In this document: positions 3,660-43,425 of the stretch, one piece after another
Layout: every line of letters starts with the position of its first letter
How positions within the stretch are numbered: the first letter of the stretch is position 1
Source: Squalus acanthias
Taxonomy: Eukaryota
Assembly (NCBI GenBank): GCA_030390025.1
Contig: JASTWF010000180.1
Coordinates: forward strand, 434,001-498,000
Reading direction: 5' to 3'
DNA length: 64,000 nt
Position numbers and translations under genes: made by a program
The notes under the pieces: model-generated
Database searches by the model: none
Told to the model about the DNA's origin: nothing
Seen by the model: only the letters and a program-made list of their open reading frames with translations

Positions 3660-4129
3660 ATGATGTCGGCGATTTCTCTCGGCCTACTGCTTGTTTTCCT
3701 ATCCAGTGCGTAGCTATAACTGCTCCATATTGTTCCAATCTTTCGGTTTCGCTGTTAGTCCCTCTTGGGGGGCGTTACAGAGCTAGGAGTCACCACCATA
3801 ATTAATGCTTCTTTACTTTTATAGGTGTCCAGTCGGATGTGTTGTTGACTCAGCCAGAGGCAGAGACCAGGCGTCTCGGACAGTCCCTGAGACTGACCTG
3901 TAAAACCAGCGGATTCGACCTTGGCAGCTATCGGATGTACTGGTACCGACAAAGCCCCGGGAAGGGAATGGATTGGCTCGTTTGGTACTATAGTAAAGAC
4001 AACAAGCTGTACCATCAAGAAGTTAGAGAACGATTTACTGCTTCCAAAGACCTTTCAAACAATATCTTCGCTTTGGGTATCAAGGGATTGACACTGGGAG
4101 ACAGCGCCACTTATTATTGCGCACACAGT
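3660..4129 (+). CDS. IgH(M)-like V gene segment V1 (leader exon 3660-3705, V exon 3825-4129)
   Basis: Leader [23 protein letters not shown] phase-1 intron, open V exon with conserved Cys-Trp-Cys, CDR1 GSYRMY, CDR2 [10 protein letters not shown], followed by RSS. Confidence 0.95.
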
Positions 4130-4168
4130 CACAGTGATACAGGTCAGACCCAGACTTGTACAAAAACA
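4130..4168 (+). other. 23-RSS of V1
   Basis: CACAGTG + 23 nt + ACAAAAACA. Confidence 0.95.
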
Positions 4169-12476: not shown

Positions 12477-12948
12477 ATGAGGTCGGCGATTTCTCTCGGC
12501 CTACTGTTTGGTTTCCTATCCAGTGCGTAGCTTTTACTGTTCCGTATTGTTCTAATCTTTCTGTTTCTCTGTTAGTCCATCTCGGGATGTGTTACAGAGC
12601 CAGGAGTCACTTCACTATTATTAATGCTTCTTTACTTCTTTAGATGTCCTGTCGGATGTGGTGTTGACTCAGCCAGAGGCAGAGACCAGGCGTCTCGGAC
12701 AGTCCCTGAGACTGACCTGTAAAACCAGAGGGTTCGATCTTGGCACCGGCTGGATGTACTGGTACCGACAAAGCTCCGGGAAGAGAATGGATTGGCTAGT
12801 TTGGTACTATGGTAAAGACAACAACGGGTACCATCAAGAAGTTAGAGCACGCGTTACTGCTTCCAAAGACCTTTCAAACAATATCTTCGCTTTGGATATC
12901 AAGAGATTGACACTGGGAGACAGCGCCACTTATTATTGCGCTCAGAGT
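12477..12948 (+). CDS. IgH-like V gene segment V2 (leader exon 12477-12522, V exon 12644-12948)
   Basis: Leader [19 protein letters not shown]; open V exon, CDR1 GTGWMY, CDR2 WYYGKDNNGY; atypical FR2 RQSSGKRMDW. Confidence 0.92.
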
Positions 12949-17119: not shown

Positions 17120-20100
17120 GAAAAGAGGAAATGCAGCAGTTTCCGCCATCATCAAACACCAATAAATCCAATGTTCACAGCAGTTCATAGAAACAAAAAA
17201 CTATACAGCACAGAAAGGGGCCATTCGGCTCATAATGCCTGTGCTGGCTCATTCAAAGGGCTATTCAATTCGTCCCACTCTCCTACACTTTTCCCATAGT
17301 CCTGTATTTTTTTTCTTTTTCGAGTATTTGACCAATTCCCTTTTGAAAGTTATTATTGAATGTTGTTCCTCTAGTCTTTCAGGCAGTGCATTCCAGACCA
17401 TAACAACTCGCTGCGTAATATTTTTATCCTCAAGTCGCCTCTGGTTCTTTTGCCAATTGCCTTAACTCTGTGTCCTTCACCTGAAACAATTTAACTCTGT
17501 TTCTCTCTCCACAGATGCTGCCTGACCTGCTGAGCCTTTCCAGCATTTTCTGTTTTAATTTCAGGTTTCCAGCAGCCGCAGTATATTGCTTTTGTTTCCA
17601 TGTTTTTGTACTCTATGCCTCTACTTATAAAGCCAATGATCCAGATTTACTTTACAACAGCCTTTTTTACTGGCCCTGCCACTTTAAAGACGTGTGTCGG
17701 TTTTCCCTGTTCCAGCACAACTTTTAAAATTGTACCAAATAGTTTATTTTGCCTCTCCTCATTCTTCCTACCAAAATGAATCACCTCAAACTTCTCTGCA
17801 TTAAATTTCCTCTGCCGTGTGCCTGGCCATTTCATCAATCTGTCTATATCGTCCTGAGCTGTGTTACTATCCTCATCACTGTTCACTGGACTTCCGAGTT
17901 TCGTGTTATCTGAATACATTGAAAGTATGCCCTTTACACACAAGTCCAGGGCAATACTATAAAGATCAAAACGAGCAGTGGCCCCAACACCGAGCTCTGG
18001 AGGACACCACTGCACACTTCCTTCCAGTCAGACAATCAACCGTTCACCACTATTCTGCGTTCTGCACCTCAGCTAACTTCGTGATCCCGCAGGTACTGCC
18101 CCTTTAATCCAATGTGCTTCAGTTTTGCTAACAAGTCTATCATGGGGTATTTTATCAAACGCCAATGGAAAATCAATGCACACAAGATGAAACGCAGTAC
18201 CTTCATCCACCCTCTGTTACTTTATCAAAAAAACTGGAACAAGTTAGTCAAACACAAATGTTGTTTTATTCTTCGTTCATGGGATGTGGCAAGGCCAGCA
18301 TTTATTGGCCATCCCTAATTGCCCCAGAGAAGGCGGTGGTGAGCCGCCTCCTTGAACCGCTGCAGTCGGTGTGCTTTTAGGGAGGGAGTTCCAGGATTTT
18401 GACCCAGCGACGATGAAGGATTGGCGATATATTTGTAAGTCAGGAAGGTGTGTGACTTCGAGGGGAACTTGGAGATGGTGCTGTGCCCGTGCGCCTGCTG
18501 CCCTTGTCCTTCTAGGTGGTACACGTCCCGGGTTTAGGGGGTGGTGCCGAAGAAGTCTTGGTGAGTTGATGCAGTGCATCTTGTAGATGGTAAGCACTGC
18601 TGCCACGGTACGCCGGTGTGTGGACGGAGTGAATGTTTAAGGTGGTGGATGGGGTGCCAATCAAGTGGGCTGCTTTGTCCTGGCCGTTGTAGAGTTTCTT
18701 GTGTGTTGTTGGAGCTGCAGTGATCCAGGCAAGTGTAGAGTATTCCATCACACTCCTTACTTGTGCCGTGTAGATGGTGGAAAGGCTTTGGAGAGTCAGG
18801 AGGTGAGACACTCGCGGCAGAATACCCAGCCTCTGACCTGCTCTTGTTGCCACTGTATTTATGTGGCTGGTCCAGTTAAGTTTCTGGTCAATGGTGACCC
18901 CCAGGATGTTGATGGTGGTGGTTTCAGTGATGGTGATGCATTTGAATGTCAAGGGGAAATGATTAGACTCTCGCTTGTTGGAGATAGTCATTGCCTGGCA
19001 ATTGTGTGGCGTCAATGTTAACTGCCACTTATCAGCCCAAACCTGAACATAAAAACACAAGAACATAATAAATAGGAGCAGGAGTAGGCCATTCGGCCCT
19101 TCTAGCCTGCTTCGCCGTTCAATGAGATAATGGCTGATCTTCTGCCTTAACTCCATTCACCAGCACTATCAGTATAGCCTTTGATGCCCTTACTAGTCAG
19201 AAAACTATCGACTTCTGTTCTGAATATACCCAACGACTGAGCCTCCACAACCCTCTGGGGTAGAGAATTCCAAAGATTCACCAACATCTGTGTGAAAAAA
19301 CATCCTCTCCTCTCAGTCCAGAAGGGCCTACCCTTTATCCTGTGGCTCTGGCCCCTGGTCCTAGACTCCGCAGCCAAGGGAATCATTCTCCCAGCATCCA
19401 CCCTATCAAGCTCTGTAACAATTTTGTATGCTTCATTGAGATCCCCTCTCATTCTTCTGAATTCAAGAGAATACAGGCCTAGTTTACTCAATCTCTTCTC
19501 ATACGACAGTCCATCCATCCCAGGAATCAATCTCGTGAAACTTCGTTGCACGCCCTCTATGCCAAGTATATCCTTCCTTAGATAAGGAGACCAAAATTGT
19601 ACACAGTACAGCAGGTGTGGTCTCACCAAGGCCCTATATAATTGGAGTAAGACTTCTTTACTCATGTACTCAAATGCTCTTGGAATGAAGGCCAGCATAT
19701 CATTTGCCTTCCTAACGGCTTGCTGCACCTGCACATTCACTTTCAGTGACTCATGTACAAGGACACCCAGCACCCTTTGAGCATCTGCATTTCCCAATCT
19801 TTCACCATTTAGGAAATACTCTGCCTTTCTGTTTTTTCTACCAAAGTGGATAACTTCACATTTATCCACGTTATATTCTATCTGCTATATTCACGCCCAC
19901 TCACTGAGCCTGTCGAGATCCCCTTTAAACTGCTTCACATCCTCTTTGCAATTGACACTGCCACCTAGCTTTGTATCATCAGCAAATTTTGAAATGTTAC
20001 ATTTAGTTCCCTCTTCCAAATCATTGATATAGATTGTGAATTCCTGGTGCCCAAGCAGCGATCCTTGCGGTACCCCATTAGTCACAGCCTGCCATCCTGA

Positions 20101-20753
20101 AAAAGACCCGTTTATCCCTACACTTTGTTTTCTGTCTGTTAACTAATTATCAATCCATGCTATTATATTACCCCCAATACCATGTGCACTAATTTTGTTC
20201 ACCAACCTCTTGTGTGGTATCTTATCGAAGGCCTTCTGAAAATCCAAATACACCACTTCTACCGGTTCCCCTTTGTCTGCTCCACTAGTTACATCCTCAA
20301 AGAACTCCAATAGGTTTGTTAAACTGGATTTCCCTTTCATCAATCCATGTTGACTCTGCCCAATCTTACTATTAGTTTCTAAGTGCCCAGTTATTGCATC
20401 CGGTATAATAGATTCCAGCGTCCTTGTGAACGTCCTCCAGGTCTTGTTGGATGCGGGCATGGACTGCTTCATTATCTGAGGAGTTGTGAATGCCACTGAA
20501 CACTGTGCAGTCATCAGACCTACGTCAATAATGAGCCATTGTCAAGGCACAGTTTGTGTTTCGGTGGATGCTGTCACGTGTTTGCAGCCGACGTCGGTTG
20601 CATGCAACCAATAGCTGGCGACTTCAAACCCGCCCCTTTCAGACTTTTGCATAAAGCCCCATAAGTGAGGTTCGGTTCCAACAATCCAGGACCTGCGTTT
20701 CCCACTGAGTGACTGAAGGAACGGCTGCCTAATTTAGCCAAATGCCCAGAAGC

Positions 20754-21229
20754 ATGAGGTCGGCGATTTCTCTCGGCCTACTGCTTGGTTTCCTATCCAG
20801 TGCGTAGCTATAACTGTTCCATAATGTTCCAATCTTTCTGTTTCTCTGTTAGTCCATCTCGGATGTGTTACAGAGCCAGGAGTCACTTCACCATTATTAA
20901 TGCTTCTTTACTTTTATAGGTGTCCAGTCGGATGTGGTGTTGACTCAGACAGAGGCAGTGACCAGGCGTCTCGGACAGTCCCTGAGACTGACCTGTAAAA
21001 CCAGCGGGTTCGATCTTGGCACCGGCTGGATGTACTGGTACCGACAAAGCCCCGGGAAGGGAATGGATTGCCTAGTTTGGTACGATAGTAAAGACAACGA
21101 GCAGTACCATCAAGAAGTTAGAGCACGAGTTACTGCTTCCAAAGACCTTTCAAACAATATCTTCGCTTTGACTATCAAGGGATTGACACTGGGAGACAGC
21201 GCCACTTATTATTGCTCAGCGCTCAGAGT
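20754..21229 (+). CDS. IgH-like V gene segment V4 (leader exon 20754-20799, V exon 20920-21229)
   Basis: Open through the second Cys; CDR1 GTGWMY, FR2 GKGMDCLV; 5 extra nt after YYC (TGC TCA GCG CTC AGA GT) before the RSS. Confidence 0.92.
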
Positions 21230-21268
21230 CACAGTGATACAGGTCAGACCCAGACTTGTACAAAAACA
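21230..21268 (+). other. 23-RSS of V4
   Basis: CACAGTG + 23 nt + ACAAAAACA. Confidence 0.95.
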
Positions 21269-23026
21269 GAAAAGAGGAAATGCAGCAGTTTCCGCCATCA
21301 TCAAACACCAATAAATCCACTGTTGACAGCAGTTCATAGAAACAAAAAAATATACAGCACAGAAAGGGGCCTTCAGGCCCATAATGCCTGTGCTGGCTCA
21401 TTCAAAGAGCTATTCAATTAGTCCCACTCTCCTACACTTTTCCCATAGACCTGTAAATATTTCTTTTTCGAGTATTTACCCAATTCCCTTTTGAAAGTTA
21501 CCCTTGAATTTGGTTCCACCAGTCTTTCAGGCAGTGCATTCCAGCCCATAACAACTCGCTGCGTAATATTTTTATCCTGAAGTCGCCTCTGGTTCTGTTG
21601 CCAATTGCCTTAACTCTGTGTCCTTCACCTGAAACAATTTAACTCTGTTTCTCTCTCCACAGATGCTGCCTGACCTGCTGAGCCTTTCCAGCATTTTCTG
21701 TTTTAATTTCAGGTTTCCAGCATCCGCAGTATTTTGCTTTTGTTTCCATGTTTTTGTACTCTATGCCTCTACTTATAAAGCCAATGATCCAGATTTACTT
21801 TACAACAGCCTTTTCAACTGGTATTGCCACGTTCAAAGACGGGTGTAGCTATACCCTGTTATAGCACCCCATTTAAAATTGTACCAAATAGTTTATATTG
21901 CCTCTCCTCATTCTTCCTACCAAAATGAATCACCTCAAACTTCTCTGCATTAAAATTCCTCTGCCGTGTGTCTGGCTATTTCATCAATCTGTCTATATCG
22001 TCCTGAGCTGTGTTACTATCCTCCTCACAGTTCACTAGATTTCCGAGTTTCGTGTTATCTGAAAACATTGAAAGTATGCCCCTTACACACAAGTCCAGGG
22101 CATTACTATAAAGATCAAAACGAGCAGTGCCCCCAACACCGAGCACTGGAGGACACGACTGCACACTTCCTTCCAGTCAGAATATCAACCGTTCACCACT
22201 ATTCTGCGTTCTGCACCTCAGCTAACTTCGTGTTCCCGCAGCGACTGTCCCTTCGTTCATGGGATGTAGCAAGGCCAGCATTTATTGTCCATCCCTAATT
22301 GCCCTTGAGAAGGCGGTGGTGAGCCGCCTTCTTGAAACGCTACAGTTCGTGTGATGAAGGTACTCACACAGTGCTGTTAGGGAGGGAGTTCCAAGATTTT
22401 GACCCAGCGACGATTAAAGATCGGCGATATACTTGTATGTCAGGATGATGTGTGCCTTCGAGGGAAACTTGGAGGTGTTGTTGTTCCCGTGCGCCTGCTG
22501 CCCTGGTCCTTCTAGGTGTTAGAGGTGGCGGTTTTGGGAGGTGCTGCCGAAGAAGCCTTGGTGAGTTGCTGCAGTACATCTTGTAGATGGTACGCACGAC
22601 AGCCACGTTGCTCCGGTGGTGGAGGGAGTGAATGTTTAAGGTGTTGGATGGGGTGCCGATCAAGCGGGCTGCTTTGTCCTGGATGGTGTCGAGTTTCTTG
22701 AGTGTTGTTGGAGCTGAACTGATCCAGGCAAGTGGAGAGTATTCCATCACACTCCTTACTTGTGATTTGTAGATGGTGGAAAGTCTTTGGGGCGTCAGGA
22801 GGTGAGACACTCGCCGCCAAATACCCTGCCTCTGACCTGCACTTGTGGCCACAGAATTTATGTGGCTGATCCAGTTAAGTTTCTGGTCAATGGTGATCCC
22901 CAGGATGTTGATGGTGGGGGATTCGGCGATGGTAATGTCGTTGAATGTCAAGGAGAGGTGATTAGACACTCGCTTGTTGGAGTTAGTCATTGCCAATGTT
23001 AACTGCCACTTATCAGCCCAAACATT

Positions 23027-23066
23027 AACATAAGAACATAAGAACATAAGAACATAAGAACATAAG
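23027..23066. repeat. (AACATAAG)5 microsatellite = 3' tail of minus-strand CR1; 4 copies at the duplicate site 45184-45215
   Basis: Direct count of the repeats. Confidence 0.9.
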
Positions 23067-24737
23067 AAATAGGAGCAGGAGTAGACCATTCGGCCCTTCG
23101 AGCCTGCTCCGCCATTCAATGAGATCATGGCTGATCTTCAGCCTCAACTTCATTCACCAGCCCTATCGCCAAACCCCTTGATGCCCTTACTAATCAGAAA
23201 TCTATCAACTTCTTTTTTGAATATACCCAATGACTGAGCCTCCACAGCCCAGTGGGCAACAGAATCCAAAGATTCACCATCCTCTGTGTGATGAAATTTT
23301 TCTCATCTCAGTCCTGATTGGCCTATCCTTTATCCTGTGGCTGTGGCCCCTGGTTCTAGACTCCCCAGCCAAGGGAAACATTCTCCCAGCATCCACCCTA
23401 TCAAGCTCTGTAACAATTTGGTATGCTTCAATGAGATCCCCTCTCATTCTTCTGAATTCAAGAGAATACAGGCCTAGTTTACTCAATCTCTTCTCATACG
23501 ACAGTCCCGCCATCCCAGAAATCAATCTCGTGAACCTTCGTTATACGCCCTCTATGGCAAGTATATCCTTCCTCAGGTAAGGAAACCAACATTGTAGTCA
23601 GTACTCCAGGTTTGGTCTCAACAAGAACCTATATAATTGGAATAAGACTTCTTTACTCCTGTTCTCAAATCCTCTTGTAATGAATGCCAGCATACCATTT
23701 GCCTTCCTAATGGCTTGCTGCACCTGCACATTCACTTTCAGTGACTCATGTACAAGGACACCCAGTACCCTTTGAGCACCTACATCCCCCAATCTTTCAC
23801 CAATCAGGAAATTTCTATTTTTTCTACCAAAGTTGATAACTTCACATTTATTCACATTATGTTCCATCTGCCATGTTCACGCTCACTCAGTGAGCCTGTC
23901 GAAATCCCCATGAAACCTCTTCACATCCTCTTCAAAACTGACACTGCCACCTAGCTTTGTACTATCAGCAAATTTGGAAATGTTACATTTAGTCCCCTCA
24001 TCCAATTCATTGATATACATTGTGTATCGCTGGGGCCCAAGCACCGATGCTTGCGGTACACCACCAGTCACAGCCTGCCATCCTGAAAAAGACCATTTAT
24101 CCCTACTCTTTGTTTTCTGTCTGTTAACTAATTATCAATCCATGCGAGTATATTACCCCCAATTCCATGTGCCCTAATTTCGTTCACCAACCTCTTGTGT
24201 GGGACCTTATCGAAGGCCTTCTGAAATTCCAAATACACCACTTCTTCCGGTTCCCCTTTGTCAACTCCACTAGTCACATACTCAAATGACTACTAAAGAT
24301 TTGTTAAACAGGATTTCCCTTTCTAAATCCATTTTGACTCTGCCCATCTTACTATTAATTTCTACGTGCCCAGTTATTGCATCCTTTATAATAAATTCCA
24401 GCGTCTATCTGAACGTCGTCCAGATCTTGTTGGATGCGGCCATGGACTGCTTCATTATCTGAGGAGTTGTGACTGCCACTGAACACTGTGCAGTCATCAG
24501 ACCGACGTCAATAATGAGCCATTGCAAAGGCACCGTTTGTGTTTCGTTGGATGCTGTCACGTGATTGCAGTCGACGTCGATTGCATGCAACCAATAGCTG
24601 GCGACTTCAAACCCGCCCCTTCCTGTCTTTTGCATCAAGCCGCATCAGTGTGGTTCGGGATCCAACAATCCAGGACCTGCGTTGCCCAGTGAGTGACTGA
24701 AGGAACGGCTGCCTAATTCAGCCAAATGCCCAGAAGC

Positions 24738-25206
24738 ATGAGGTCGGCGATTTCTCTCGGCCTACTGCTTGGTTTCCTATCCAGTGCGTAGCTATAATGT
24801 TCCGAATTGTTCCAATCTTTCTGTTTCGCTGTTAGTCCCTCTCGGGGGGCGTTACAGTACCAGGAGTCACCACCATACTTAATGCTTCTTTACTTTTATA
24901 GGTGTCCAGTCGGATGTGGTGTTGACTCAGCCAGAGGCAGAGACCAGGCGTCTCGGACAGTCCCTGAGACTGACCTGTAAAACCAGCGGGTTCGATCTTG
25001 GCAACGGCTGGATGTACTGGTACCGACAAAGCCCCGGGAAGGGTTTGGATTGGCTAGTTTTGTACTATAGTAATGACAAAATCCAGTACCATGAAGAAGT
25101 TAGAGAACGAGTTACTGCTTCCAAAGACATTTCAAACAATATCTTCGCTTTGGGTATGAAGGGATTGACAATGGGAGACAGCGCCACTTATTATTGCGCT
25201 CAGAGT
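24738..25206 (+). CDS. IgH-like V gene segment V5 (leader exon 24738-24783, V exon 24902-25206)
   Basis: Leader [19 protein letters not shown]; CDR1 GNGWMY, FR2 [11 protein letters not shown]2 [10 protein letters not shown]. Confidence 0.95.
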
Positions 25207-25245
25207 CACAGTGATACAGGTCAGACCCAGACTTGTACAAAAAAC
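25207..25245 (+). other. 23-RSS of V5 (nonamer ACAAAAAAC)
   Basis: CACAGTG + 23 nt + ACAAAAAAC (one extra A in the run). Confidence 0.92.
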
Positions 25246-28200
25246 AGAAAAGAGGAAATGCAGCAGTTTCCGCCATCATCAAACACCAATAAATCCAATG
25301 TTGACAGCAGTTCATAGAAACAAAAAACTATACAGCACAGAAAGCGGCCATTCGGCCCATAATGCCTGTGCTGGCTCATTCAAAGAGCTATTCAATTAGT
25401 CCCACTCTCCTACACTTTTCCCATAGCCGTGTATTTTTTTCTTTTTCGAGTAATTATCCAATTCCGTTTTGAAAGTTATCATTGAATTTGGTTCCTCTAG
25501 TCTTTCAGGCAGTGCGTTCCAGACCATAACAACTCGCTGCGTAATCTTTTTATCCTCAAGTCGCCTCTGGTTCTTTTGCCAATTGCCTTAACTCTGTGTC
25601 CTTCACCTGAAACAATTTAACTCTGTTTCTCTCTCCACAGATGCTGCCTGACCTGCTGAGCCTTTCCAGCATTTTCTTTTTTAATTTCAGGTTTCCAGCA
25701 TCCGCAGTATTTTGCTTTTGTTTCCATGTTTTTGTACTCTATGCCTCTACTTATAAAGCCAATGATCCAGATTTACTTTACAACAGACTTTTCAACTAGT
25801 CCTGCCACGTTCAAAGACGGGTGTAGCTATACCCTGTTCCAGCACCCCTTTTAAAATTGTACCAAATAGTTTATTTTGCCTCTCTTCATTCTTCCTACCA
25901 AAATGAATCACCTCAAACTTCTCTACATTAAATTTCCTCTGCGGTGTGTCTGGCCATTTCATCACTCTGTCGATATCGTTCTGAGCTGTGTTACTATCCT
26001 CCTCACTGTTCACTAGATTTCAGAGTTTCGTGTTATCTGAAAACATTGAAAGTATGCCCTTTACACACAAATCCAGGGCATTACTATAAAGATCAAAAAG
26101 AGCAGTGGCCCCACACCGTGCTCTGGAGGACACCACTGCACACTTCCTTCCAGTCAGACAATCAACCATTCACCACTGCTCTGCGTTCTGCCCCTCAGCT
26201 AACTTCGTGTTCCCGCAGGTACTGCCCCTTTAATCCCATGTGCTTCAATTTTGCTAACAAGTCTATCATGGGGTATTTTATCAAACGCCAATGGAAAATC
26301 AATGCACACAACATGAAACGCACTACCTTCATCCACCCTCTGTTAATTTATCAAAAAAACTGGAACAAGTTAATCAAACACAAATGTTTTTTTTATTCTT
26401 CGTTCATGGGATGTGGCAAGGCCAGCATTTATTGGCCATCCCTAATTGCCCTTGAGAAGGCGGTGGTGAGCCGCCTCCTTGGACCGCTGCAGTCGGTGTG
26501 CTTTTAGGGAGGGAGTTCCAGGATTTTGACACAGCGACGATGAAGGATTGGCGATATATTTGTAAGTCAGGAAGGTGTGTGACTTCGAGGGGAACTTGGA
26601 GGTGGTGGTGTTCCCTTGCGCCTGCTTCCCTTGTCCTTCTTGGTGGTAGATGTCCCGGGTTTGGGGGGTGGTGTCGAAGAAGTCTTGGTGTGTTGATGCA
26701 GTGCATCTTATAGATGGTAAGCCCTGCTGCCATGGTATGCCGGTGTGTGAACGGAGTGAATGTTTAAGGTGGTGGATGGGGTGCCAATCAAGTGGGCTGC
26801 TTTGTCCTGGCCGTTGTCGAGTTTCTTGTGTGTTGTTGGAGCTGCAGTGATCCAGGCAAGTGTAGAGTATTCCGTCACACTCCTTACTTGTGCCATGTAG
26901 ATGGTGGAAAGGCTTTGGAGAGTCAGGAGGTGAGACACTCGCGGCAGAATACCCAGCCTCTGACCTGCTCTTGTTGCCACTGTATTTATGTGACTGGTCC
27001 AGTTAAGTTTCTGGTCAATGGTGACCCCCAGGATATTGATGGTTTTGGATTCAGTGATGGTGATGCATTTGAATGTCAAGGGGAAATGATTAGACTCTCG
27101 CTTGTTGGAGATAGTCATTGCCTGGCAATTGTGTGGCGCCAATGTTAACTGCCACTTATCGGCCCAAACCTGAACATAAAAACACAAGAACATAAGAAAT
27201 AGGAGCAGGAGTAGGCCATTCGGCCCTTCTAGCCTGCTCCGCCGTTCAATGAGATAATGGCTGATCTTCTGCCTTAACTCCATTCACCAGCACTATCAGC
27301 ATATCCGTTGATGCCCTTACTAGTCAGAAAACTATCGACTTCAGTTTTGAATATACCCAACGACTGACCCTCCACAGCTCTCTGGGGTAGTGAATTCCAA
27401 AGATTCACCAACATCTGTGTGAAAAGAAATCCTCTCCACTCAGTCCAGAAGGGCCTACCCTTTCTCCTAAGGCTGTGGCCCCTGGTCCTAGACTCCGCAG
27501 CCAAGGGAATCATTCTCCCAGCATCCACGCTACCAAGCTCTGTAACAATTTTGTATGCTTCAATGAGATCCCCTCTCATTCTTCTGAATTCAAGAGAATA
27601 CAGGCCTAGTTTACTCAATCTCTTCTCATACGAAAGTCCATCCATCCCAGGAATCAATCTCGTGAAACTTCGTTGCACGCCCTCTATGCCAAGTATATCC
27701 TTCCTTAGGTAAGGAGACCAAAATTGTACACAGTACACCAGGTGTGGTCTCACCAAGGCCCTATATAATTGGAGTAAGACTTCTTTACTCATGTACTCAA
27801 ATCCTCTTGATATGAAGGCCAGCATATCATTTGCCTTCCTAATGGCTTGCTGCACGTGCACATTCACTTTCGGTGACTCATGTAAAAGGACACCCAGGAC
27901 CCTTTGAGCATCTGCATTTCCCAATCTTTCACCATTTAGGAAATACTCTGCCTTTCTGTTTTTTCTACCAAAGTGGATAACTTCACATTTATCCATCTTA
28001 TATTCTATCTGCTATGTTCTGGCCCACTCACTGAGCCTGTCGAGATCCCCTTTAAACTTCTTCACATCCTCTTCGCAATTGACACTGCCACCTAGCTTTG
28101 TATCATCAGCAAATTTGGAAATGTTACATTTAGTTCCCTCTTCCAAATCATTGATATAGATTGTGAATTCCTGGGGCCCAAGCAGCGATCCTTGCGGTAC

Positions 28201-28881
28201 CCCATTAGTCACAGCCTGCCATCCTGAAAAAGACCCGTTTATCCCTACACTTTGTTTTCTGTCTGTTAACTAATTATCAATCCATGCTATTATATTACCC
28301 CCAATTCCAAGTGCATTAATTTTGTTCACCAACCTCTTGTGTGGGACCTTATCGAAGGCCTTCTGAAAATCCAAATACACCACTTCTAACGGTTCCCCTT
28401 TGTCTACTCCACTAGTTACATCCTCAAAGAACTCCAATAGGTTTGTTAAACTGGATTTCCCTTTCATCAATCCATGTTGACTCTGCCCAATCTTACTATT
28501 AGTTTCTAAGTGCCCAGTAATTGCATCCGGTATAATAGATTCCAGCGTCCTTGTGAACGTCCTCCAGGTCTTGTTGGATGCGGGCATGGACTGCTTCATT
28601 ATCTGAGGAGTTGTGAATGCCACTGAACACTGTGCAGTCATCAGACCGACGTCAAGAATGAGCCATTGTAAAGACACAGTTTGTGTTTCGGTGGATGCTA
28701 TCACGTGATTGCAGTCGACGTCGATTGCATGCAACCAATAGCTGGCGACTTCAAACCCGCCCCTTTCTGCATTTTGCATAAAGCCCCGTAAGTGAGTTTC
28801 GGTATCCAACAATCCAGGACCTACGTGGCCCAGTGAGTGACTGAAGGAGCGGCTGCCTAATTCAGCTAAATGCCCAGAAGC

Positions 28882-29351
28882 ATGAGGTCGGCGATTTCTC
28901 TCGGCCTACTGCTTGGTTTCCTATCCAGTGCGTAGCTATAACTGTTCCATAATGTTCCAATCTTTCTGTTTCGCTGTTAGTCCCTCTTGGGTGGCTTCAC
29001 AGAGCCAGGAGTCACCACCATAATTAATGCTTCTTTACTTTTACAGGTGTCCAGTCGGATGTGGTGTTGACTCAGCCAGAGGCAGAGACCAGGCGTCTCG
29101 GACAGTCCCTGAGACTGACCTGTAAAACCAGCGGGTTCGATCTTGGCAGCAATTGGATGTACTGGTACCGACAAAGCCCCGGGAAGGGAATGGATTGGCT
29201 AGTTTCGTACCTTAGTCAACACGGCAACCAGTACGATCAAGAAGTTAAAGAACGAGTTACTGCTTCCAAAGACCTTTTAAATAATATCTTCGCTTTGAGT
29301 ATCAAGAGATTGACAATGGGAGACAGCGCCACTTATTATTGCGCTCAGAGT
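28882..29351 (+). CDS. IgH-like V gene segment V6 (leader exon 28882-28927, V exon 29047-29351)
   Basis: Open V exon; CDR1 GSNWMY, CDR2 [10 protein letters not shown]. Confidence 0.95.
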
Positions 29352-29390
29352 CACAGTGATACAGGTCAGACCCAGACTTGTACAAAAACA
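29352..29390 (+). other. 23-RSS of V6
   Basis: CACAGTG + 23 nt + ACAAAAACA. Confidence 0.95.
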
Positions 29391-30417
29391 GAAAAGAGGA
29401 AATGCAGCAGTTTCCGCAATCATCAAACACCAATAAATCCACTGTTGACAGCAGTTCATAGAAACAAAAAACTATACAGCACAGAAAAGGGCCATTCGGC
29501 CCATATTGCCTGTGCTGGCTCATTCAAACAGCTTATCAATTAGTCACACTCTCTTACACTTTTCCCATAGCCCTGTAAATTTTTCTTTTTCGAGTATTTA
29601 TCCAATTCCCTTTTGAAAGTTATCATTGAACTTGGTTCCACCAGTCTTTCAGGCAGTGCATTCCAGACCATAACAACTCGCTGCGTAATATTTTTATCCT
29701 CAAGTCGCCTCTGGTTCTTTTGCCAATTGCCTTAACTCTGTGTCCTAAACCTGAAACAATGTAACTCTGTTTCTCTCTCCACAGATGCTGCCTGACCTTC
29801 TGAGCATTTCCAGCATTTTCTGTTTTAATTTCAGGTTTCCAGCATCCGTAGTATTTTGCTTTTGTTTCCATGTTTTTGTACTCTATGCCTCTACTTATAA
29901 AGCCAATGATCCAGATTTACTTTACAACAGCCTTTTCGAATTGTCCTACCACGTTCAAAGACGGGTGTAGGTATACCCTGTTCCAGGACCCCGTTTAACA
30001 TTGTACCAAATAGTTTATATTGCCTCTCCTCATTCTTCCGACCAAAATGAATCACCTCAAACTTCTCTGCATTAAATTTCTTCTGCCGTGTGTCTGGCCA
30101 TTTCATCAATCTGTCTGTATCGTCCTGAGCTGTGTAATTATCCTCCTCACTGAATACTAGATTACCGAGTTTCGCGTTATCTGAAAACATTGAAAGTATG
30201 CCCTTTACATACAAGTCCAGGGCATTCATTTTAAGATCAAAAAGAGCAGTGGCCCCAACACCGAGCGCTGGAGGACACCACTGCACACTTTCTTCCAGTC
30301 AGACAATCAACCGTTCACCACTATTCTGCGTTCTTCTAACTTCGTGATCCCGCAGCTACTGACCCTTTAATCCCAAGTGCTTCAATTTTGCTAACAAGTC
30401 TATCGTGGGGTTTTTAT

Positions 30418-33400
30418 CATAGAAACATAGAAACATGGAAGATAGGAGCAGGATTAGGCCTTTCGGCCCCTCGAATCTGTTCCGCCATTTAATGAGATCA
30501 CGGCTGATCATCCAAATTCAGTACCCTGTCCCTGCTTTCTCCCCATATCCCTTGTACCCTTTAGCCTTAAGAAATATATCTAACTCCTTCTTGAATATAT
30601 TTAATGAATTGTCCTCAACTGCCTTGTGTCGTACAGAATTCCATAGGTTCACCACTCTCTGGGTGATGAAATTCCTCCTCATCTCAGTCCTAAATGGCTT
30701 ATCACTAATCCTTAGACTGTGACCCCTGGTTCTAGACTCACCCGCCATCGGGAACATCCTTCCTGCCTCTAGTCCTGTTGGAATTTTATATAAGTTTCAA
30801 TAAGATGCCCTCTCATTCTTCTAAACTCTAGCGAATATAAGCCCAATCGACCCAATCTCTCCTCATACGTTATTCCTGCCATCCCAGGTATCAGCCTGGT
30901 GAATCTTCGCTGCACTCTCTCCACGGCAAGAACATCCTTCCTCAGATAAGGCGACCAAAACTGCACACAATACTCAAGGTGTGGTCTCACCAAGGCCCTG
31001 TACAACTGAAGCAAGACATCCTTGCTCCTGTACTCGAATCCTCTTGCTATGAAGGCCAACATACCATTTGCCTTCTTAACCGCCTGCTGCACCTGCATGT
31101 TTACCTTCAGCGACTGGTGCACAAGGACACCCAGGTCTCGTTGCACTTCCCCTTTTCCCAATCTATTGCCGTTCAGATAATAACCTGCCTTCCTGTTTTT
31201 GCCACCAAAGGTGATAACCTCGCATTTATCCACATTATACTGCATCTGCCATGCATCTGCCCAATCATCCAACCTGTCCAAATCATACTGGAGTTTCTCT
31301 GCATCCTCCTCACAGCACACACGCCCACCCAGCTTTGTGTCGTCTGCAAACTTGGAGATATTACATCTAGTTCCCTCGTTAATAATATATATTGTGAATA
31401 GCTGAGGTCCAAGCACCAATCCCTGCGGTACCCCACTTGTCACTGCCTGCCACTCGGAAAAAGACCCGTTTATTCCAACTCTTTGCTTCCTGTCTGCCAA
31501 ACAGTTCTCTATCCAAGTCTGTACCTTACCCCCAATCCCATGCGCTTTAACTTTGCACGCTAATCTCTTATGTGGGACCTTATCAAAAGCCTTCTGTAAA
31601 TCCAAATACACCACATCCACTGGTTCTCACTTATCTATTCTGCCAGTTACATGCTCAAAAATTCCAGTAGATTTGTCAAGCATGATTTGCCTTTTGTAAA
31701 TCCAATTTGACTTTGTCCGATCCTGTCACTGTTTTCCAAGTGCTCTGCTATTACATCTTTTATAATGGACTCTAGCATTTTCCCCACTACCGATGTCAGG
31801 CTTACCCGTCTATAAAACACCGTTTTCTCTCTACCACTTTTTTAAATCGTGGGGTTACATTAGCTACACTCCAATCCATGGGAACTGTTCCAGAGTCTAT
31901 AGAATTTTGGAAGATGACCAGCAATGCATTTGCTATTTCTAGGGCCACTTCCTTAAGTAACCTAGCATATAGATTATCAGGCCCTGGGGATTTATTCAAT
32001 CCCGTCAATTTCCCTAACACCATTTCCGTACAAATACTGATTTCATTCAGTTCCTTATTCTCATTAGACCCTATGTTCCCCGACATCTCTGGCAGATTAT
32101 TTGTGTCCTCCTTTGTGAAGACAGAACCAAAGTATGTATTTAATTGGTCTGCCGTTTCTTTGTTCCCCATTATAAATTCCCCTGATTCTGACTGCAAGGG
32201 ACCTACACTTGACTTCAACTATCTTTTTCTCTTTACATATCTATAGAAGATTTTACAGTCAGTTTTTATGTTCCCTGAAAGCTTACTCACATACTCTATT
32301 TTCCCCCTCTTAATTCATGCCTTTTTCCTCCATTGCTGAATCCTTAGCTGCTCCCACTCCTGAGGTTTGCTGCTTTTTCCTCCCAATTTATATCTGGTCT
32401 CCTTGGATCTTATGCGGTCCCTAATTTCAATTTTTAGTCAGGTTTGAGTCACTTTTTTTGTTTTATTTTCTGCCAAACGGGGATGAATAAATTCTGTAGT
32501 TCATCCATGCAATCTTTAAATGTTTGCCATTGCCTATCTACCGTCAACCCTTTAAGTAACGTCCCCCAATCCATCCTAGCCAACTCACGCCTCATACCTT
32601 CGTAGTTTCCTTTATTTAAATTCAGGACCCTAGTCTCTGAGTCAACTACTTCACTCTTCATCTTAATGAAGAATTCTATCATATTATGATCGCTCCTCCC
32701 CAAGGGGCCTCGCACAACAAGATTGCTAATTAATCCTTTCTCATTACATAATACCCAGTCTAAGATGGCCTGATCTCTAGTTGGTTCCTCGACATATTGA
32801 CCCAGGAAACCATTCTGTATACACTCTAGGAATTCCCCCTCCACAATATTGTTACTAATTTGGTTAGCCCAATTATATGTAGATTAAAGTCACCCATGAT
32901 AACTGCTGTGCCCTTATTGCACGCATCTCTAATTTCCTGTTTAATGCCATCCCCCATCTCAGCATCACTGTTTGGGGTTCTGTATACAAGTCCCACTAAC
33001 GTTTTCTGCACCTTGGTATTTCTCAGCTCTACCCATACAGATTCCACATCATCAGAGCTAATATCCTTCCTTACTATTGTGTTAATCTCCTCTTTAACCA
33101 GCAATGCTACCCCACCTCCTTGTCCTTTTTGCCTGTCCTTCTTGAATATTGAATATTCCTGGATGTTGAATTCCCAGCTTTGGTCACCCTGGAGCCATGT
33201 CTCCGTAATCCCAATTATATCATATCCGTTTACATCTATTTGTGCAGCTAATTCATCCACCTTATTATGAATGCTCCTTGCATTAAGACACAAGGCTTGT
33301 TTTTTTAACACTCTCAGTTGTTTTAGAATTATTGTTTACTGTGGCCCTGTTTGATTGACAGCCTTGATTTCTCTGACTTCCACGTTTGCTTTTCTCCTTC

Positions 33401-34852
33401 CTGTCTTTTGCTTCTATCCTTGCTTCCCTTTCCTCTGTCTCCCTGCACAGGTTCCCAACCTCCTGCCATTTTAGTTTAAAACCTCCCAAACAGCACTAGC
33501 AAACACTCCCCCTAGGACATCTGTCCCGGTCCTGCCCAGGTCCGAACCGTCCAGTTTGTACTGGTCCCACCTCCCCCAGAACCGTTTCCAATGTCCCAAG
33601 AATTTGAATCCCTCCCCCTTGCACCATTCCTCTAGCCACGTATTCATCTGAAATATCCTTCTATTTCTACTCTGACTAGCACGTGGCAACGGTAGCATTC
33701 CTGAGATTACTACCTTTGAGGTCCTATTTTTTAATTTACCTCCAAACTCCCTATATTCAGCTTTTAGAACTTCATCCCGTTTTTTACCTATATCGTTGGT
33801 ACCTATATGCACCACGACACCTGGCTGTCCACCCTCCACCTCCAGAATGCCCTGCAGGCGCTCCGAGACATCCTTGATCCTTGCACCAGGGAGGCAACAT
33901 ACCATTCGGGAGTCTCGTTTGCGGCCGCACAAGCGCCTATCTATTCCCCTTACAATCGAATCCCCTAACACTATAGCTCTCCCGCTCTTTTTCCTCCCGT
34001 CCTGTGCAGCAGAACCACCTATGCTGCCAGGAAGTTGGCTGCTGCTGCCTTTCCCCAATAAGCTGTCTCCCTGAACAATATCCAAAGCGGTGTATCTGTT
34101 TGAAAGGGGGATGGCCACAGGGGACCCCTGTAATACCTGCCTGTGCCTACCACGCTGCCTGGCGGTCACCCATTCCCTTCCTGCCTGTGCAGCCTTTACC
34201 TGCGGTGTGACCAACTAATTAACCGTGCTATCCACGACGACCTCAACATCGCGAATGCTCCAGTAGGTATCCATTCGCAGCTCGAGCACCGCAATGGGTT
34301 CTGCCAGTAGCTGCAGCTGGATACACTTCCCACACACATGGTTGTCAGGGACACAAGAAGTGTCCTTGATTTCCCACATAGTGCAGGAAGAGCATGCCAC
34401 GGGGCCGAGCTGTGCTGCCATGACTTACCCATTAATTAATTTAAATTAAATTAAATCAAATCAATACCACTGATTACACTACAATTAAATGATATACTCA
34501 AGGGCCCTTGTTTACTAGCACTCCCCGCTACACAACAGAGACTTTAGAAACTATAACCACAAAATTAAGCCCTTCTAAACTTTATAAACCTTAACTGTCA
34601 AACTATAAATTAGTATAAATACTCACCTGGCTCTACTCACCCAAACAGCTGCTTCCTCTTGCTCGTGTCACTTTTTGAATCGTGACGTGGCTCTGGAACG
34701 CCGCCACCGGTCTGCGAGATTGGTAAGCCTCTGAGGACAAAAGCCAGCTAAAGTAAGTTTAACTACTCACTGTACCGCCGCTCTCTGCAGCTCCAGATAC
34801 CGGCCTCTGTAAAAAAGCCCGCGAAAGTGAGTTTAGCTACTCAATGTACTGC
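30418..34852 (-). mobile_element. Near-full-length degenerate CR1-clade LINE (5' UTR, ORF1 zinc finger/esterase, ORF2 APE-RT; multiple stops and frameshifts)
   Basis: CSSC..CGKC, VLGDSIVR, HIGTND, NARS, ITETWL, GDFN, SDH, FADD on the minus strand; (CATAGAAA)n tail at 30418; interrupts the unit sequence TTTATCA|..|CGCCAATG; no clear TSD. Confidence 0.93.
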
Positions 34853-35610
34853 CGCCAATGAAAAATCCATATACACAAGATGAAACGCACTACCTTCATC
34901 CACTCTCTCCGTTACTTTATCAAAAAAACTGGAACAAGTTGGTCAAACACAAATGTTATTTTATTCTTCGTTCCTGGGATGTGGGCGTCGCTAATTGCCC
35001 TTGAGAAGGCGGTGGTGAGCCGCCTTCTTGAACCGCTGCAGTCCGTGTGCTGAAGGTACTCCCACAGTGCTGTTAGGGAGGGTGTTCCAGGATTTTGACG
35101 CAGTGACGGTTAAGGATCGGCGATACACTTGTAAGTCAGGATGGTGTGTGACTTCGAGGGAAACTTGGAGGTGGAGCTGTTCCCATGCGCCTGCTGCCCT
35201 GGTCCTTCGAGGTGGTAGATGCTGCGGGTATGGGAGGTCGTGCCAAAGAAGTCTTGGTGAGTTGCTGCAGTGCATCTTGTAGATGGTACACACCGCAGCC
35301 ATGGTACGCCGGTGGTGGAGCGAGTGAATGTTTAAGGTGGTGGGTGGGGTGCCGATCAAGCGGGGTGCTTTGTCCTGGATGGTGTCGAGTTTCTTTAGTG
35401 TTGTTGGAGCTGCACTCATCCAGGCAAGTGGAGAGTATTTCATCACACTCCTTACTTGTGCCTTGCAGATAGTGAAAAGGCTTTGGGGAGTCAGGAGGTG
35501 AGACACTCGCCGCAGGATACCTCGCCTCTGACCTGTTCTGGTGGTCACAGAATGTATGTGGCTGGTCCAGTTAAGTTTCTGGTCAATGATGACCCCCAGG
35601 ATGTTGATGG

Positions 35611-36937
35611 TGTAGGCTTCGCAACATCCCCCAGAAACTCGAACAGAACTCTAAAGGGAGTGATTTTTGACATTTCATACAAACTTGGGATGATGGGACC
35701 TAAGTGAAGTTATTTGAGGTAAAAACCTCAGTTTTGGACATTTTTAAGATCAGGGAAGAAGAACCCTGAGGAAACTGACTTTTGAATCTTACTGTTGGGA
35801 AAGACACCTTTCACAGACACAAGTCAGGCTGCGGAGGGGCGTGGCCAGGCAGTGGACAGCTTTGGATATTGGGGCCCAGTCAAGCTGTCTGGGAATTGTT
35901 TACACTGCAATCCTACCAAGGAGGAAGAGACAAACCCAAAACCTCACGCATACATCGAAATATGAATAATCCAAGACCCCTTTTGAAATTCCCATTCCCA
36001 AACACGATACCAGAAGCCTGAAATCAATAAAACATTTAGTACCCCGATTACTTCATCAAAAACCAATCAACCAGGTATCCACAGGGACAGATTTACAACC
36101 CCGCCAAAAACCTGGGACCATAGGGACAAGATTTGGCGAGCAGATAAATGCCCTGCCTAAATGGGAAACATTGGAAGCCATCAGGACATGTTTAACACCA
36201 AGTTAAAGCCATCGAAACTGACAAGCCCACTAAAACTAAGACAATGGAATAAACAGGGCTCAATTGAAATCTAAAGGAAACCGATTTAGTAAGGGGTTTT
36301 TGGCGCGAAAAGGTCAAAGGGCATGAACAGTATAATTGGGGGCCTAATCCCCCAAGACAGTCTCTCTCTGGACTCTCTGACAACGCTCTCAACGCTCGCA
36401 CAGCTCTCTCACTCAGCTCTGTTCCAGCAAGACACCACAAGCCACGAGCATGAGGAGGAAAGAAGGTCAACAACTTCACAAGCAGACCAGCATGCAAGAA
36501 GAAACCAGAGCGACTGCCTCAGTGACCCTGGACACCTCGCGGCAACAAGGGCCTTATGAAACATTTTACTCAAAAGACTCTAAACCCTAGCTCTCAACTG
36601 TCAAGGATTCGTCTGGTGAGAATTATCCCTGATCTCCTGAAACCAAAACCTAGCTAGATAGTGGGATTTTTTGGAGGGATCAGGTTTTTTTGTATATTGT
36701 CTTCCCCCTCGCCTGTTCCGTCTGTTCTGCAACCTGTGTTTTAGTGTAAAGTTTGTTTTAAGTTTGTTACATTTTTCTTTTAATAATGTCAAAATTCTTT
36801 CATCAAGTCATGTTGTCTAATGCATCTTTGTTCACAACCCCTAAATAAGTCCAAAGTCTAGAACCATGGGCGTGGGAGCGATTCGAACCGCTCACTGAGT
36901 CAGAGGTGAAGGCTGACCCCACACACCATTCCCTACA
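35611..36937. mobile_element. Solo LTR (1327 bp), Gypsy- or ERV-type
   Basis: TGTAGG...CCTACA inverted termini, 4-bp TSD ATGG (35607-35610, 36938-36941), interrupts a LINE remnant, no retroviral ORFs. Confidence 0.85.
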
Positions 36938-38768
36938 ATGGTGGGGGATTCGGCGATGGTAATGCCGTTGAATGTCAAGGGGAGGTGATTAGACTCTCGC
37001 TTGTTTGAGATAGTCGTTGCCACGCACTTGTGTGGCACCAATGTTAACTGCCACTTATCAGCCCAAACCTGAACATAAGAACATAAGAAATAGGAGCAGG
37101 AGTAGGCCATTCGGCCCTTCGAGCCTGCTCCGCCATTCAATGAGATCATGGCTGATCTTCTGCCTCAACTCCATTCACCAGCCCTATCGCCATATGCCTT
37201 GATGCCCTTACTAGTCAGAAATATATCGACTTCTGTTTTGAATAGACCCAATGACTGAGCCGCCACCGCCCTCTGGGGTAGAGAATTCCAAAGATTCACC
37301 ACCCTCTGTGTGAAAATTTTCTTCTCATCTCAGTCCTGAGTGGCTTACCCTTTATACTGAGGCTGTGGCCCCTGGTTCTAGACTCCCCAGCCAAGGGAAA
37401 CTTTCTCCCAGCATCCACCCTATCAAGCCCTGTAATAATTGTGTATGCTTCAATGAGATCCCCTCTCATTCTTCTGAATTCAAGAGAATACAGGCCTAGT
37501 TTACTCAATCTCTTCTCATACGACAGTCCCGCCATCCCAGGAATCAATCTTGTGAACCGTCGTTGCACTCCCTCTATGGCAAGTATATCCTTCCTTAGGA
37601 AAGGAGACCAAAATTGTACACAGTACTCCAGGTGTGGTCTCACCAAGGCCCTATATAATTGGAGTAAGACTTCTTTACTCCCGGACTCAAATGCACTTGT
37701 AATGAAGGCCAGCATATCATTTGTCTTCCTAATGGCTCGCTGCACCTGCACAATCACTTTCAGTGACTCATGTACAAGCACACGCAAGCCCCTTTGAGCA
37801 TCTGCATTCGCCAATCTTTCATCTTTTAGGATATACTCTGCCTTTCTGTTTTTTCTACCAAAATGGATAACTTCACATTTATCCACGTTATATTCCATCT
37901 GCCATGTTCTCGCCCACTCACTAAGCCTGTCGAGACCCCCTGAAAACCTTTCACATCCTCTTCACAACTGACACAGCCACCTAGCTTTGTATCATCAGCA
38001 AATTTGGAAATTTTACATTTAGTCCCCTCATCCAAATCATTGATATAGATTGTGAATAGCTGGGGCCCAAGCACCGATCCTTGCGTTACCCCACTAGTCA
38101 CAGCCTCCCTTCCTGAAAAAGACCCGTTTATCCCTACTCTTTGTTTTCTGTCTGTTAACTAATTCTCAATCCATGCTAGTATATTCCCCCAATTCCATGT
38201 GCCCTAATTTTGTTCACCAACATCTTGTGTGCAACTATATCGAAGGCCTTCTGAAAATCCAAATACACCACATCTACCAGTTCCCCTTTCTCTACTCCAC
38301 TAGTTGCATCCTCAAAGAACACCAATAGGTTTGTTAAACAGGATTACCCTTTCATAAATCCATGTTGACTCTGCCCAATCTTACTATTAGTTTCTACGTG
38401 CCCAGTTATTGCATCATTTATAATAGATTCCAGCGTCTATCTGAACGTCGTCCAGGTCTTGTTGGATGCGGCCATGGACAGCTTCATTATCTGAGGAGTT
38501 GTGAATGCCACTGAACACTGTGCAGTCATCAGACCTACGTCAATAATGAGCCATTGTGAAGGCACAGATTGTATTTCGGTGGATGCTGTCACGTGATTGC
38601 AGTCGACGTCGGTTGCATGCAACCAATAGCTGGCGACTTCAAACCCGCCCTTTTCTTGCTTTTGCACAAAGCCCAAAAGTGAGGTTCGGGATCCAACAAT
38701 CCGTGAACTGCGTTGCCGAGTGAGTGAATGAAGGAGCGACTGCCTAATTGAGCCAAATGCCCAGAAGG

Positions 38769-39238
38769 ATGATGTCGGCGATTTCTCTCGGCCTACTGCT
38801 TGTTTTGCTATCCAGTGCGTAGCTATAACTGCTCCATATTGTTCCAATCTTTCTGTTTCGCTGTTAGTCCCTCTTGGGGGGCTTTACAGAGCTAGGAGTC
38901 ACCACCATAATTAATGCTTCTTTACTTTTATAGGTGTCCAGTCGGATGTGGTGTTGACTCAGCCAGAGGCAGAGACCAGGCGTCTCGGACAGTCCCTGAG
39001 ACTGACCTGTAAAACCAGCGGGTTCAATCTTGGCAGCAACTATATGTACTGGTACCGACAAAGCCCCGGGAAGGGAATGGATTGGCTCGTTTGGTACTAT
39101 AGTAAAGACAACAAGCAGTACCATCAAGAAGTTAGAGAACGAGTTACTGCTTCCAAAGACCTTTCAAACAATATCTTCGCTTTGGGTATCAAGGGATTGA
39201 CAATGGGAGACAGCGGCACTTATTATTGCGCACAGAGA
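38769..39238 (+). CDS. IgH-like V gene segment V7 (leader exon 38769-38814, V exon 38934-39238)
   Basis: Leader [19 protein letters not shown]; CDR1 GSNYMY, CDR2 [20 protein letters not shown]. Confidence 0.95.
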
Positions 39239-39277
39239 CACAGTGATACAGATCAGACCCAGACTTGTACAAAAACA
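39239..39277 (+). other. 23-RSS of V7
   Basis: CACAGTG + 23 nt + ACAAAAACA. Confidence 0.95.
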
Positions 39278-43386: not shown

Positions 43387-43425
43387 CACAGTGATACAGG
43401 TCAGACCCAGACTTGTACAAAAACA
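43387..43425 (+). other. 23-RSS of V8
   Basis: CACAGTG + 23 nt + ACAAAAACA. Confidence 0.95.

What the first reader, a model, noticed from the sequence alone, without database searches (positions are those of the whole stretch)
3836..4129. VH-type framework with TCR/light-chain-like interface residues (WYRQ, GKGMD[W/L/C], DSATYYC)
Seen: all 7 distinct Vs have Tyr right after the conserved Trp (WYRQ). The GLEW motif is replaced by GMDW/RMDW/GMDL/GMDC/GLDW, and FR3 ends LT[L/M]GDS[A/G]TYYCA[Q/H][S/R] (except V4/V8, which end YYCSALR) rather than EDTAxYYCAR. Established: conventional VH usually has WVRQ/WIRQ..GLEW, and these positions (Kabat 37/45/47) form the VH-VL interface and are the ones altered in camelid VHH. 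WY[R/Q]Q is typical of TCR V and VL domains. Inference: the pairing surface has been remodelled, possibly for a TCR partner chain (V-gamma/V-beta) or for unpaired use.
Basis: partly seen in the sequence, partly recalled or inferred. Interest (0 to 1): 0.7.

Follow-up and report, generated by a model that had tools for sequence, protein, structure and literature searches.

The report
Antibody-type V genes in shark TCR-delta

Summary
The motifs are real. All 11 V genes in the window read WYRQ. They belong to a 29-copy array of IgM-type V genes with 23-bp RSSs. The array lies between TCR-type V genes and one D, 17 J and the genome's single C-delta match. One public contig joins an array V directly to a J-delta; another is the spliced leader-V of window V2. 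Relatives in four other shark species form one clade with the array and all keep Tyr37, so this is most likely the known TAILV/VH-delta class. The interface is only partly remodelled. Tyr37 is TCR-like (39 of 42 TCR V), but Gln39, Met/Leu45, Trp47 (23 of 29) and Tyr91 stay pairing-type, and camelid E44/R45 are absent, so unpaired use is unlikely. Of 32 cluster IgM VH, only 2 carry Tyr37, and both have lost the CH1 exon; 8 of 8 others tested keep it. Extras: FR1 looks gene-converted with IgM, and the CH1-less IgM is a candidate heavy-chain-only antibody.

The parts
3660..3705 (+). Leader exon of V1 (IgM-type leader)
   Evidence: 80-84% identical to the leaders of three cluster IgM genes
3706..3824 (+). 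Leader intron, GT..AG
   Evidence: removed at this place in public contig X1 record 1, which derives from paralogue V2
3825..4129 (+). V1 exon, IgM-type VH; mature domain from 3836 (the finding)
   Evidence: up to 65% identical to cluster IgM VH of the same genome
3944..3946 (+). Tyr37 codon (Kabat 37, IMGT 42), the TCR/VL-type residue
   Evidence: sequence; Tyr in 27 of 29 array genes
3965..3976 (+). Kabat 44-47, G-M-D-W
   Evidence: sequence; column counts
4130..4168 (+). 23-bp-spacer RSS of V1
12644..12948 (+). V2 exon (RMDW); leader 12477-12522, RSS 12949-12987; source of the spliced contig X1
16776..17080 (+). V3 exon (GMDL); RSS 17081
20920..21229 (+). V4 exon (GMDC, ends YYCSALR); RSS 21230
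24902..25206 (+). V5 exon (GLDW); RSS 25207
29047..29351 (+). V6 exon (GMDW); RSS 29352
38934..39238 (+). V7 exon (GMDW); RSS 39239
43077..43386 (+). V8 exon, duplicate of V4; RSS 43387
47051..47355 (+). V9 exon, duplicate of V5; RSS 47356
51196..51500 (+). V10 exon, duplicate of V6; RSS 51501
61081..61385 (+). V11 exon, duplicate of V7 (last leader residue Pro); RSS 61386
18000..62000 (.). Tandem 22-kb block (about 18-40 kb against 40-62 kb), about 99.8% identical: very recent duplication or assembly artefact
   Evidence: 40 differences over 22 kb

Best explanation
The V genes are IgM-type heavy-chain V segments that lie as a 29-copy tandem array inside the shark TCR alpha/delta locus, upstream of D, J and C-delta, and they are likely recombined into TCR-delta chains whose single V domain is predicted to pair with V-gamma. 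Shown: the locus, the 23-RSSs, one V-to-J-delta junction, one spliced leader-V, and a clade with TCR-linked V of four other shark species. Inferred: an IgM V gene was copied into the locus before these sharks diverged and fixed Val37 to Tyr. Tyr37 is the residue TCR V domains carry, and it would pack with the Phe supplied by J-delta in place of the Trp of JH. The other pairing residues stayed VH-like. The array then expanded in this lineage, and FR1 was probably refreshed by gene conversion with IgM V.
For: Locus order on C911: TCR-type V at 23-374 kb; 29 array V at 377-519 kb; one 12/23-flanked D at 557,898; 17 FGxG J motifs, then a C exon at about 582,970 and a TM exon whose best PDB hits are TCR delta constant; 115 more J motifs and a second C. 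Relatives of the first C are joined to NAR-TCR-type double V in 3 of 7 hits. No IgM C exon lies at 370-590 kb. Contig X2: 64/64 bases of array V 503,924, 2 added bases, then 28/28 bases of the J at 569,199, the only exact match in 314-864 kb. Contig X1: exact leader splice, and the V2 difference pattern 14/14 with 7+17 mismatches to V1. The array groups with basking shark, bamboo shark and catshark V at 100/98, and at 98/95 without FR1, CDR1 and position 37; two of these gene models run into J and C-delta. Tyr37: 27/29 array, 39/42 TCR V, 2/32 IgM family 1, 0/8 other VH; 0 of 10 JH-bearing V domains among fetched proteins. Both Tyr37 IgM lack CH1.
Against: No full V-J-C-delta transcript was seen; only 30 bases beyond the V were shown. 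Pairing with TCR-gamma was not tested here; it rests on the nurse-shark literature, recalled and not read. X1 and X2 are 'RNA?' by guess, one contig each, and belong to two coded organisms. Within the array pN/pS in frameworks is about 1 (1.15, 0.86, 0.96), so selection on individual copies is not evident. Phe37 occurs in 3 of 32 IgM VH, and the 2 tested keep CH1, so an aromatic 37 is compatible with light-chain pairing. The CH1 loss is one event shared by two clusters (identical junction). The broken array-type V of bamboo sharks end YYS rather than YYC.
Confidence: 0.8

Rival explanations
1. The array V are used mainly as TCR-alpha V (joined to the distal J cluster and the second C) and pair with V-beta.
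For: A 23-RSS V can join any 12-RSS J; 115 J motifs and a second C lie downstream in the same orientation. The one junction seen has no D and an alpha-like short CDR3. TCR V of both kinds carry Tyr at this place.
Against: The array is the V group nearest to D and J-delta, and the one junction uses a J upstream of C-delta. Relatives are modelled onto C-delta.
Confidence: 0.12
2. The V domains work unpaired, like camelid VHH, V-NAR or the distal V of NAR-TCR.
For: V37Y is one of four VHH hallmarks (PMC9100996). In this genome Tyr37 recurs in CH1-less IgM. Trp47 is lost in 6 of 29.
Against: G44E and L45R are absent; position 45 is hydrophobic in 29/29, with Gln39 and Tyr91 in 29/29. The junction goes to an ordinary J-delta with no supporting V between V and C, so the V would face the partner chain's V.
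Confidence: 0.05
3. The residues are neutral founder changes in one ancestral copy, multiplied by tandem duplication, with no effect on pairing.
For: One origin only; framework pN/pS about 1 within the array; GKGMD is private to this genome; one copy has Cys37 and one has His37.
Against: Tyr37 is kept in all four other shark species, whose V are 61-67% or less identical to V1 where measured. Array-versus-IgM pN/pS is 0.46-0.50 in FR2 and FR3. This rival fits positions 45-46 well and position 37 poorly.
Confidence: 0.25
4. The array is a set of orphan IgM VH pseudogenes, or V for an unseen IgH translocon.
For: An IgM C region lies at the far left end of the same contig; part of the array may be falsely duplicated.
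Against: 29 of 29 V frames are open, 28 of 29 have a 23-RSS, 26 of 29 pass a leader and splice check. No IgM C follows the array. Splicing and rearrangement are seen.
Confidence: 0.03

Closest known systems
[quoted passage not shown]
   Same: IgH-like V segments inside the TCR alpha/delta translocon of a shark, a lineage apart from cluster VH, joined to TCR-delta J.
   Different: Here there is a 29-copy array; from recall, one segment was found in the nurse-shark BAC sequence. No nurse-shark TAILV sequence was on hand, so orthology was not tested directly. Whether Tyr37 was remarked on could not be checked.
VH-delta of amphibians, birds and platypus (passages in PMC5278385; PMC12698447)
   Same: VH-like V with 23-RSS, D with 12/23-RSS, J with 12-RSS and C-delta.
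   Different: The donor here is shark IgM VH family 1; the origin is probably independent (inference).
Shark Ig-TCR-delta trans-rearrangements using IgM/IgW V (passages in PMC5931798; PMC6795676)
   Same: IgM-type V on TCR-delta D-J-C.
   Different: Those use ordinary cluster VH (Val/Ile37); these are dedicated in-locus genes with Tyr37.
Camelid VHH (passages in PMC9100996)
   Same: V37Y.
   Different: No G44E or L45R; Trp47 mostly kept; C region is a TCR. The CH1-less IgM pair (L049, L050) is the closer analogue.
CH1-less IgM cluster of spotted ratfish (passage in PMC3149040)
   Same: Applies to the side finding L049/L050: an IgM cluster without CH1.
   Different: The ratfish gene has a CH2 duplication and is holocephalan; here there is a plain 584-bp deletion with Tyr37/Arg44/Phe47.

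Membership tests
TAILV / VH-delta | V closer to IgH V than to TCR V | tested here: met
   54-65% to shark IgM VH against 40% or less to other V types; groups with IgM VH in trees
TAILV / VH-delta | Located inside the TCR alpha/delta locus, upstream of D-J-C-delta, with 23-RSS | tested here: met
TAILV / VH-delta | Rearranged to TCR-delta J | tested here: met
   one contig, X2: 64/64 V bases and 28/28 J bases
TAILV / VH-delta | Expressed with C-delta and not with IgH C (recalled from Deiss 2019) | tested here: inconclusive
   only 30 bases beyond the V were shown; the C was not seen
TAILV / VH-delta | Lineage distinct from cluster VH and shared between sharks | tested here: met
   clade 100/98 and 98/95 without FR1, CDR1 and position 37
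TAILV / VH-delta | Groups with the nurse-shark TAILV sequences | not testable with these tools
   papers not held; no such named sequence
TAILV / VH-delta | Co-expression or pairing with TCR-gamma | not testable with these tools
   needs single-cell or protein data
Camelid-type VHH | V37F/Y | tested here: met
   27 of 29
Camelid-type VHH | G44E, L45R, W47G | tested here: not met
   Gly44 27/29 (Arg 2), Met/Leu45 29/29, Trp47 23/29 (Leu 4, Cys 2)
Cluster-type IgM VH | Own D, JH (WGxG) and C-mu exons behind each V | tested here: not met
   none in the window or up to C-delta
NAR-TCR V | V with own D-J placed on a supporting V-delta | tested here: not met
   no D or J between array V; junction to an ordinary J-delta

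The most novel reading that the evidence does not exclude
Tyr37 is a general switch away from light-chain pairing in shark VH. It marks an old shark-wide TCR-delta lineage, amplified here to 29 copies, and it recurs in an IgM pair that deleted CH1, giving this shark an undescribed heavy-chain-only IgM with camelid-like FR2. IgM clusters and the TCR-delta array still trade sequence by gene conversion (FR1; perhaps the Tyr37 tract itself).
Probability: 0.35. Interest if true: 0.68.

Novelty: new member of a known kind. Interest (0 to 1): 0.42.

Why it matters
It shows which residue changes when an antibody VH becomes a dedicated T-cell-receptor V: chiefly Kabat 37. That is a single, testable mutation for the open question of how Ig V domains pair with V-gamma. 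The same genome offers a natural control, since Tyr37 in IgM coincides with CH1 loss. The class itself is known, so the surprise is moderate. The 29-copy expansion, the apparent FR1 conversion and the CH1-less IgM were not found in the papers I could search, but the main shark papers were not held.

Tried and rejected
Primary papers (Deiss 2019, Ott 2020 and 2021, Criscitiello 2010, a 2024 review) were not held, so TAILV features beyond one line are recalled. The look-up of sequencing runs: no RNA holder listed on record; the 4 runs are 'RNA?' by guess. Parts of V1 without cover are not used as evidence. X3's 167-base contig is array-like but matched no copy exactly (best 7 of 8 listed differences). 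My first CH1 patterns missed CH1 in every cluster and were corrected. The idea that L049/L050 were the donor of the array was rejected: they nest among IgM VH next to L060, and FR2-FR3 is no closer to the array. The Pfam scan of the C exon gave nothing, and its PDB search gave only generic C domains; the delta call rests on locus order, the TM exon and the NAR-TCR-linked relatives. CDR2 pN/pS of 1.85 rests on 3 synonymous sites per sequence and is not claimed as positive selection. The second tree crashed and was rerun on 21 rows. No structure or complex prediction was run: V-V pairs pass by likeness to solved structures, and a germline V lacks the J strand. Three look-ups of earlier findings gave nothing that bears on this.

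Full report
OBSERVATION. Window 3836-4129 encodes an open V-set domain with leader, GT-AG intron and a 23-RSS. A six-frame scan finds 11 such genes, all on the + strand. Four pairs come from a 22-kb tandem block that is about 99.8% identical, so 7 are distinct. The window holds no D, J or C segment.

LOCUS. The window is G000:C911:434,001-498,000, in a 3.7-Gb genome whose nearest named proteins are shark IgM VH. The array has 29 V from 377 to 519 kb. All 29 frames are open and 28 have a 23-RSS; the copy at 433,696 has a broken heptamer. Twenty-six pass a leader and splice check, and two leaders were not matched by my pattern. Upstream lie dozens of TCR-type V. Downstream lie one D flanked by 12- and 23-RSS at 557,898, 17 FGxG J motifs, a C exon near 582,970 and a TM exon whose top PDB hits are TCR delta constant. 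This C has one match in the genome, and 3 of its 7 long relatives carry NAR-TCR-type double V domains, which are delta-specific (established knowledge). Then come 115 J motifs and a second C, the alpha position. No IgM C exon lies between 370 and 590 kb. The array is thus the D-proximal V group of a TCR alpha/delta locus.

USE. Four public runs were laid; RNA is a guess for all. X1 holds a 298-base contig with the leader intron removed exactly. Its 7+17 differences from V1, and 14 of 14 listed letters, match window V2. X2 holds a 156-base contig with 64/64 bases of the copy at 503,924, two added bases, and 28/28 bases of the J at 569,199, which lies upstream of C-delta and is the only exact match. 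No D is present, which the 12/23 rule allows. The C was not visible. These are single contigs.

LINEAGE. In a DNA tree of 69 V the array is one clade (100/100), apart from all 32 family-1 IgM VH. Profile searches returned array-like V in gene models of Cetorhinus maximus, Chiloscyllium plagiosum, C. punctatum and Scyliorhinus canicula. Two run into a TCR J and C-delta, and two follow a TCR V. Seven array genes and three of these relatives form a clade at 100/98 (34 rows). With FR1, CDR1 and position 37 removed, support is 98/95 (21 rows). All relatives have Tyr37; none has GMDW. Tyr37 is therefore old, and the GKGMD motif is local.

INTERFACE. Kabat 37 is Tyr in 27 of 29 array genes (one Cys, one His) and in 39 of 42 TCR-type V with no stop in their last 88 residues. 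It is Tyr in 2 of 32 family-1 IgM VH (Val 23, Ile 4, Phe 3) and 0 of 8 other VH. Gln39 and Tyr91 are invariant in the array. Position 44 is Gly 27, Arg 2; 45 is Met 26, Leu 3; 46 is Asp 29; 47 is Trp 23, Leu 4, Cys 2. Camelid VHH are defined by V37F/Y, G44E, L45R, W47G (PMC9100996, passages), and only the first is met. The surface stays hydrophobic and of the pairing kind. From established structure (recalled, not tested here), residue 37 packs against the first J-encoded aromatic residue: Val with Trp in VH, Tyr with Phe in TCR and VL. A VH that receives Phe from J-delta and gains Tyr37 therefore acquires the TCR pairing core. That this is adaptive is an inference (about 0.6-0.7). Among 35 V domains with shark-IgM-like FR3 in the fetched proteins, Tyr37 occurs in 4, all of this lineage, and in 0 of 10 followed by a JH.

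I fetched 40 other VH-type genes of this genome and the C regions of 10 clusters. Two V (L049, L050) read WYRQVPRQRLEF in V-D-J-C-mu clusters. Both lack CH1 through the same 584-bp deletion with an identical junction. All 8 others keep CH1, including 2 with Phe37. L049 has open CH2, CH3 and CH4 with a secretory tail; L050 has a frameshift in CH2. CH1 loss is the first requirement of a heavy-chain-only antibody, and a CH1-less IgM is known in ratfish (PMC3149040, passages). So no CH1-bearing IgM with Tyr37 was found among those tested. This is one event, and Phe37 is tolerated with CH1, so the support is modest.

SEQUENCE EXCHANGE. Between array and IgM VH, synonymous differences are 0.12 in FR1 but 0.54 in FR2 and 0.59 in FR3; Fisher p ran from 2e-5 to 4e-3 in five non-independent pairs. 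The intron is only 68-69% identical, while FR1 is 88-93%. This points to gene conversion of FR1. Against: FR1 is also about twice as slow as FR3 among IgM VH. L049/L050 match array copies at 93-95% over CDR1 to WYRQ, so their Tyr may have come by conversion or by two point changes through Phe; I cannot separate these. An IgM C region sits at the left end of the same contig, in line with the IgH-TCR alpha/delta linkage reported in PMC12227049 (section 6 read).

AGAINST. Framework pN/pS within the array is about 1 (22 distinct sequences), as expected for young copies under weak constraint. No full transcript, partner chain or protein was observed. Part of the copy number may be an assembly artefact.

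COMPARISON. [quoted passage not shown] The primary TAILV papers were not held, and their supplements could settle orthology and whether Tyr37 was noted. PMC5931798, PMC6795676 and PMC13113880 were seen as passages only. Eight literature searches showed no description of a large array or of an elasmobranch CH1-less IgM; that is weak evidence given the gaps.

VERDICT. Observation confirmed. Interpretation right about a TCR partner, overstated about remodelling, and unsupported for unpaired use. A new, greatly expanded member of a known class. Interest 0.42.

Noticed in passing
L049 (G000:C3620, V at 78,356 +) and L050 (G000:C29, V at 8,299,256 -): Two IgM clusters with VH Tyr37/Arg44/Phe47 share a 584-bp deletion of the CH1 exon. 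L049 looks intact (CH2-CH4, secretory tail, apparently pre-joined D); L050 has a CH2 frameshift. Candidate heavy-chain-only IgM; expression not tested.
   Followed up: partly
window 3825-3910 and the FR1 of all array genes: FR1 is far closer to cluster IgM VH than the intron, FR2 or FR3 are (synonymous 0.12 against 0.54-0.59): probable gene conversion.
   Followed up: partly
G000:C911:373,690-373,972 (L032): A single, more divergent IgH-like V (WYRQFPGKGLEW) just before the array, frameshifted in FR1, no leader seen; it groups loosely with IgW/family-2 VH. It would be a second VH-type lineage with Tyr37 in the locus.
   Followed up: partly
coded run X2 against L001:6149-6212 and G000:C911:569,199: The V-J-delta junction skips the D and has two added bases that read as P nucleotides of the J end.
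   Followed up: partly
G000:C911:119-4,894 (L121): IgM CH1, CH2 and CH4 exons lie about 18 kb from the first TCR V on the same contig.
   Followed up: partly
window about 18,000-62,000: 22-kb tandem duplication at about 99.8% identity; recent event or false duplication.
   Followed up: partly
window about 6,700-11,500: LINE-type retroelement reading frames interrupt the 4.1-kb repeat unit between V1 and V2; family not determined.
   Followed up: no
L041-L070, L079, L080: Many cluster IgM V lack an RSS or lie within about 400 bases of JH, i.e. germline-joined VD or VDJ.
   Followed up: no
window V11 (61,081) and copies at C911 380,946 and 417,496: The last leader residue is Pro instead of Ser, which may hinder signal-peptide cleavage.
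   Followed up: no
G000:C911:558-577 kb: The J-delta cluster is large (17 J motifs) with repeated J types, and there is only one D.
   Followed up: no
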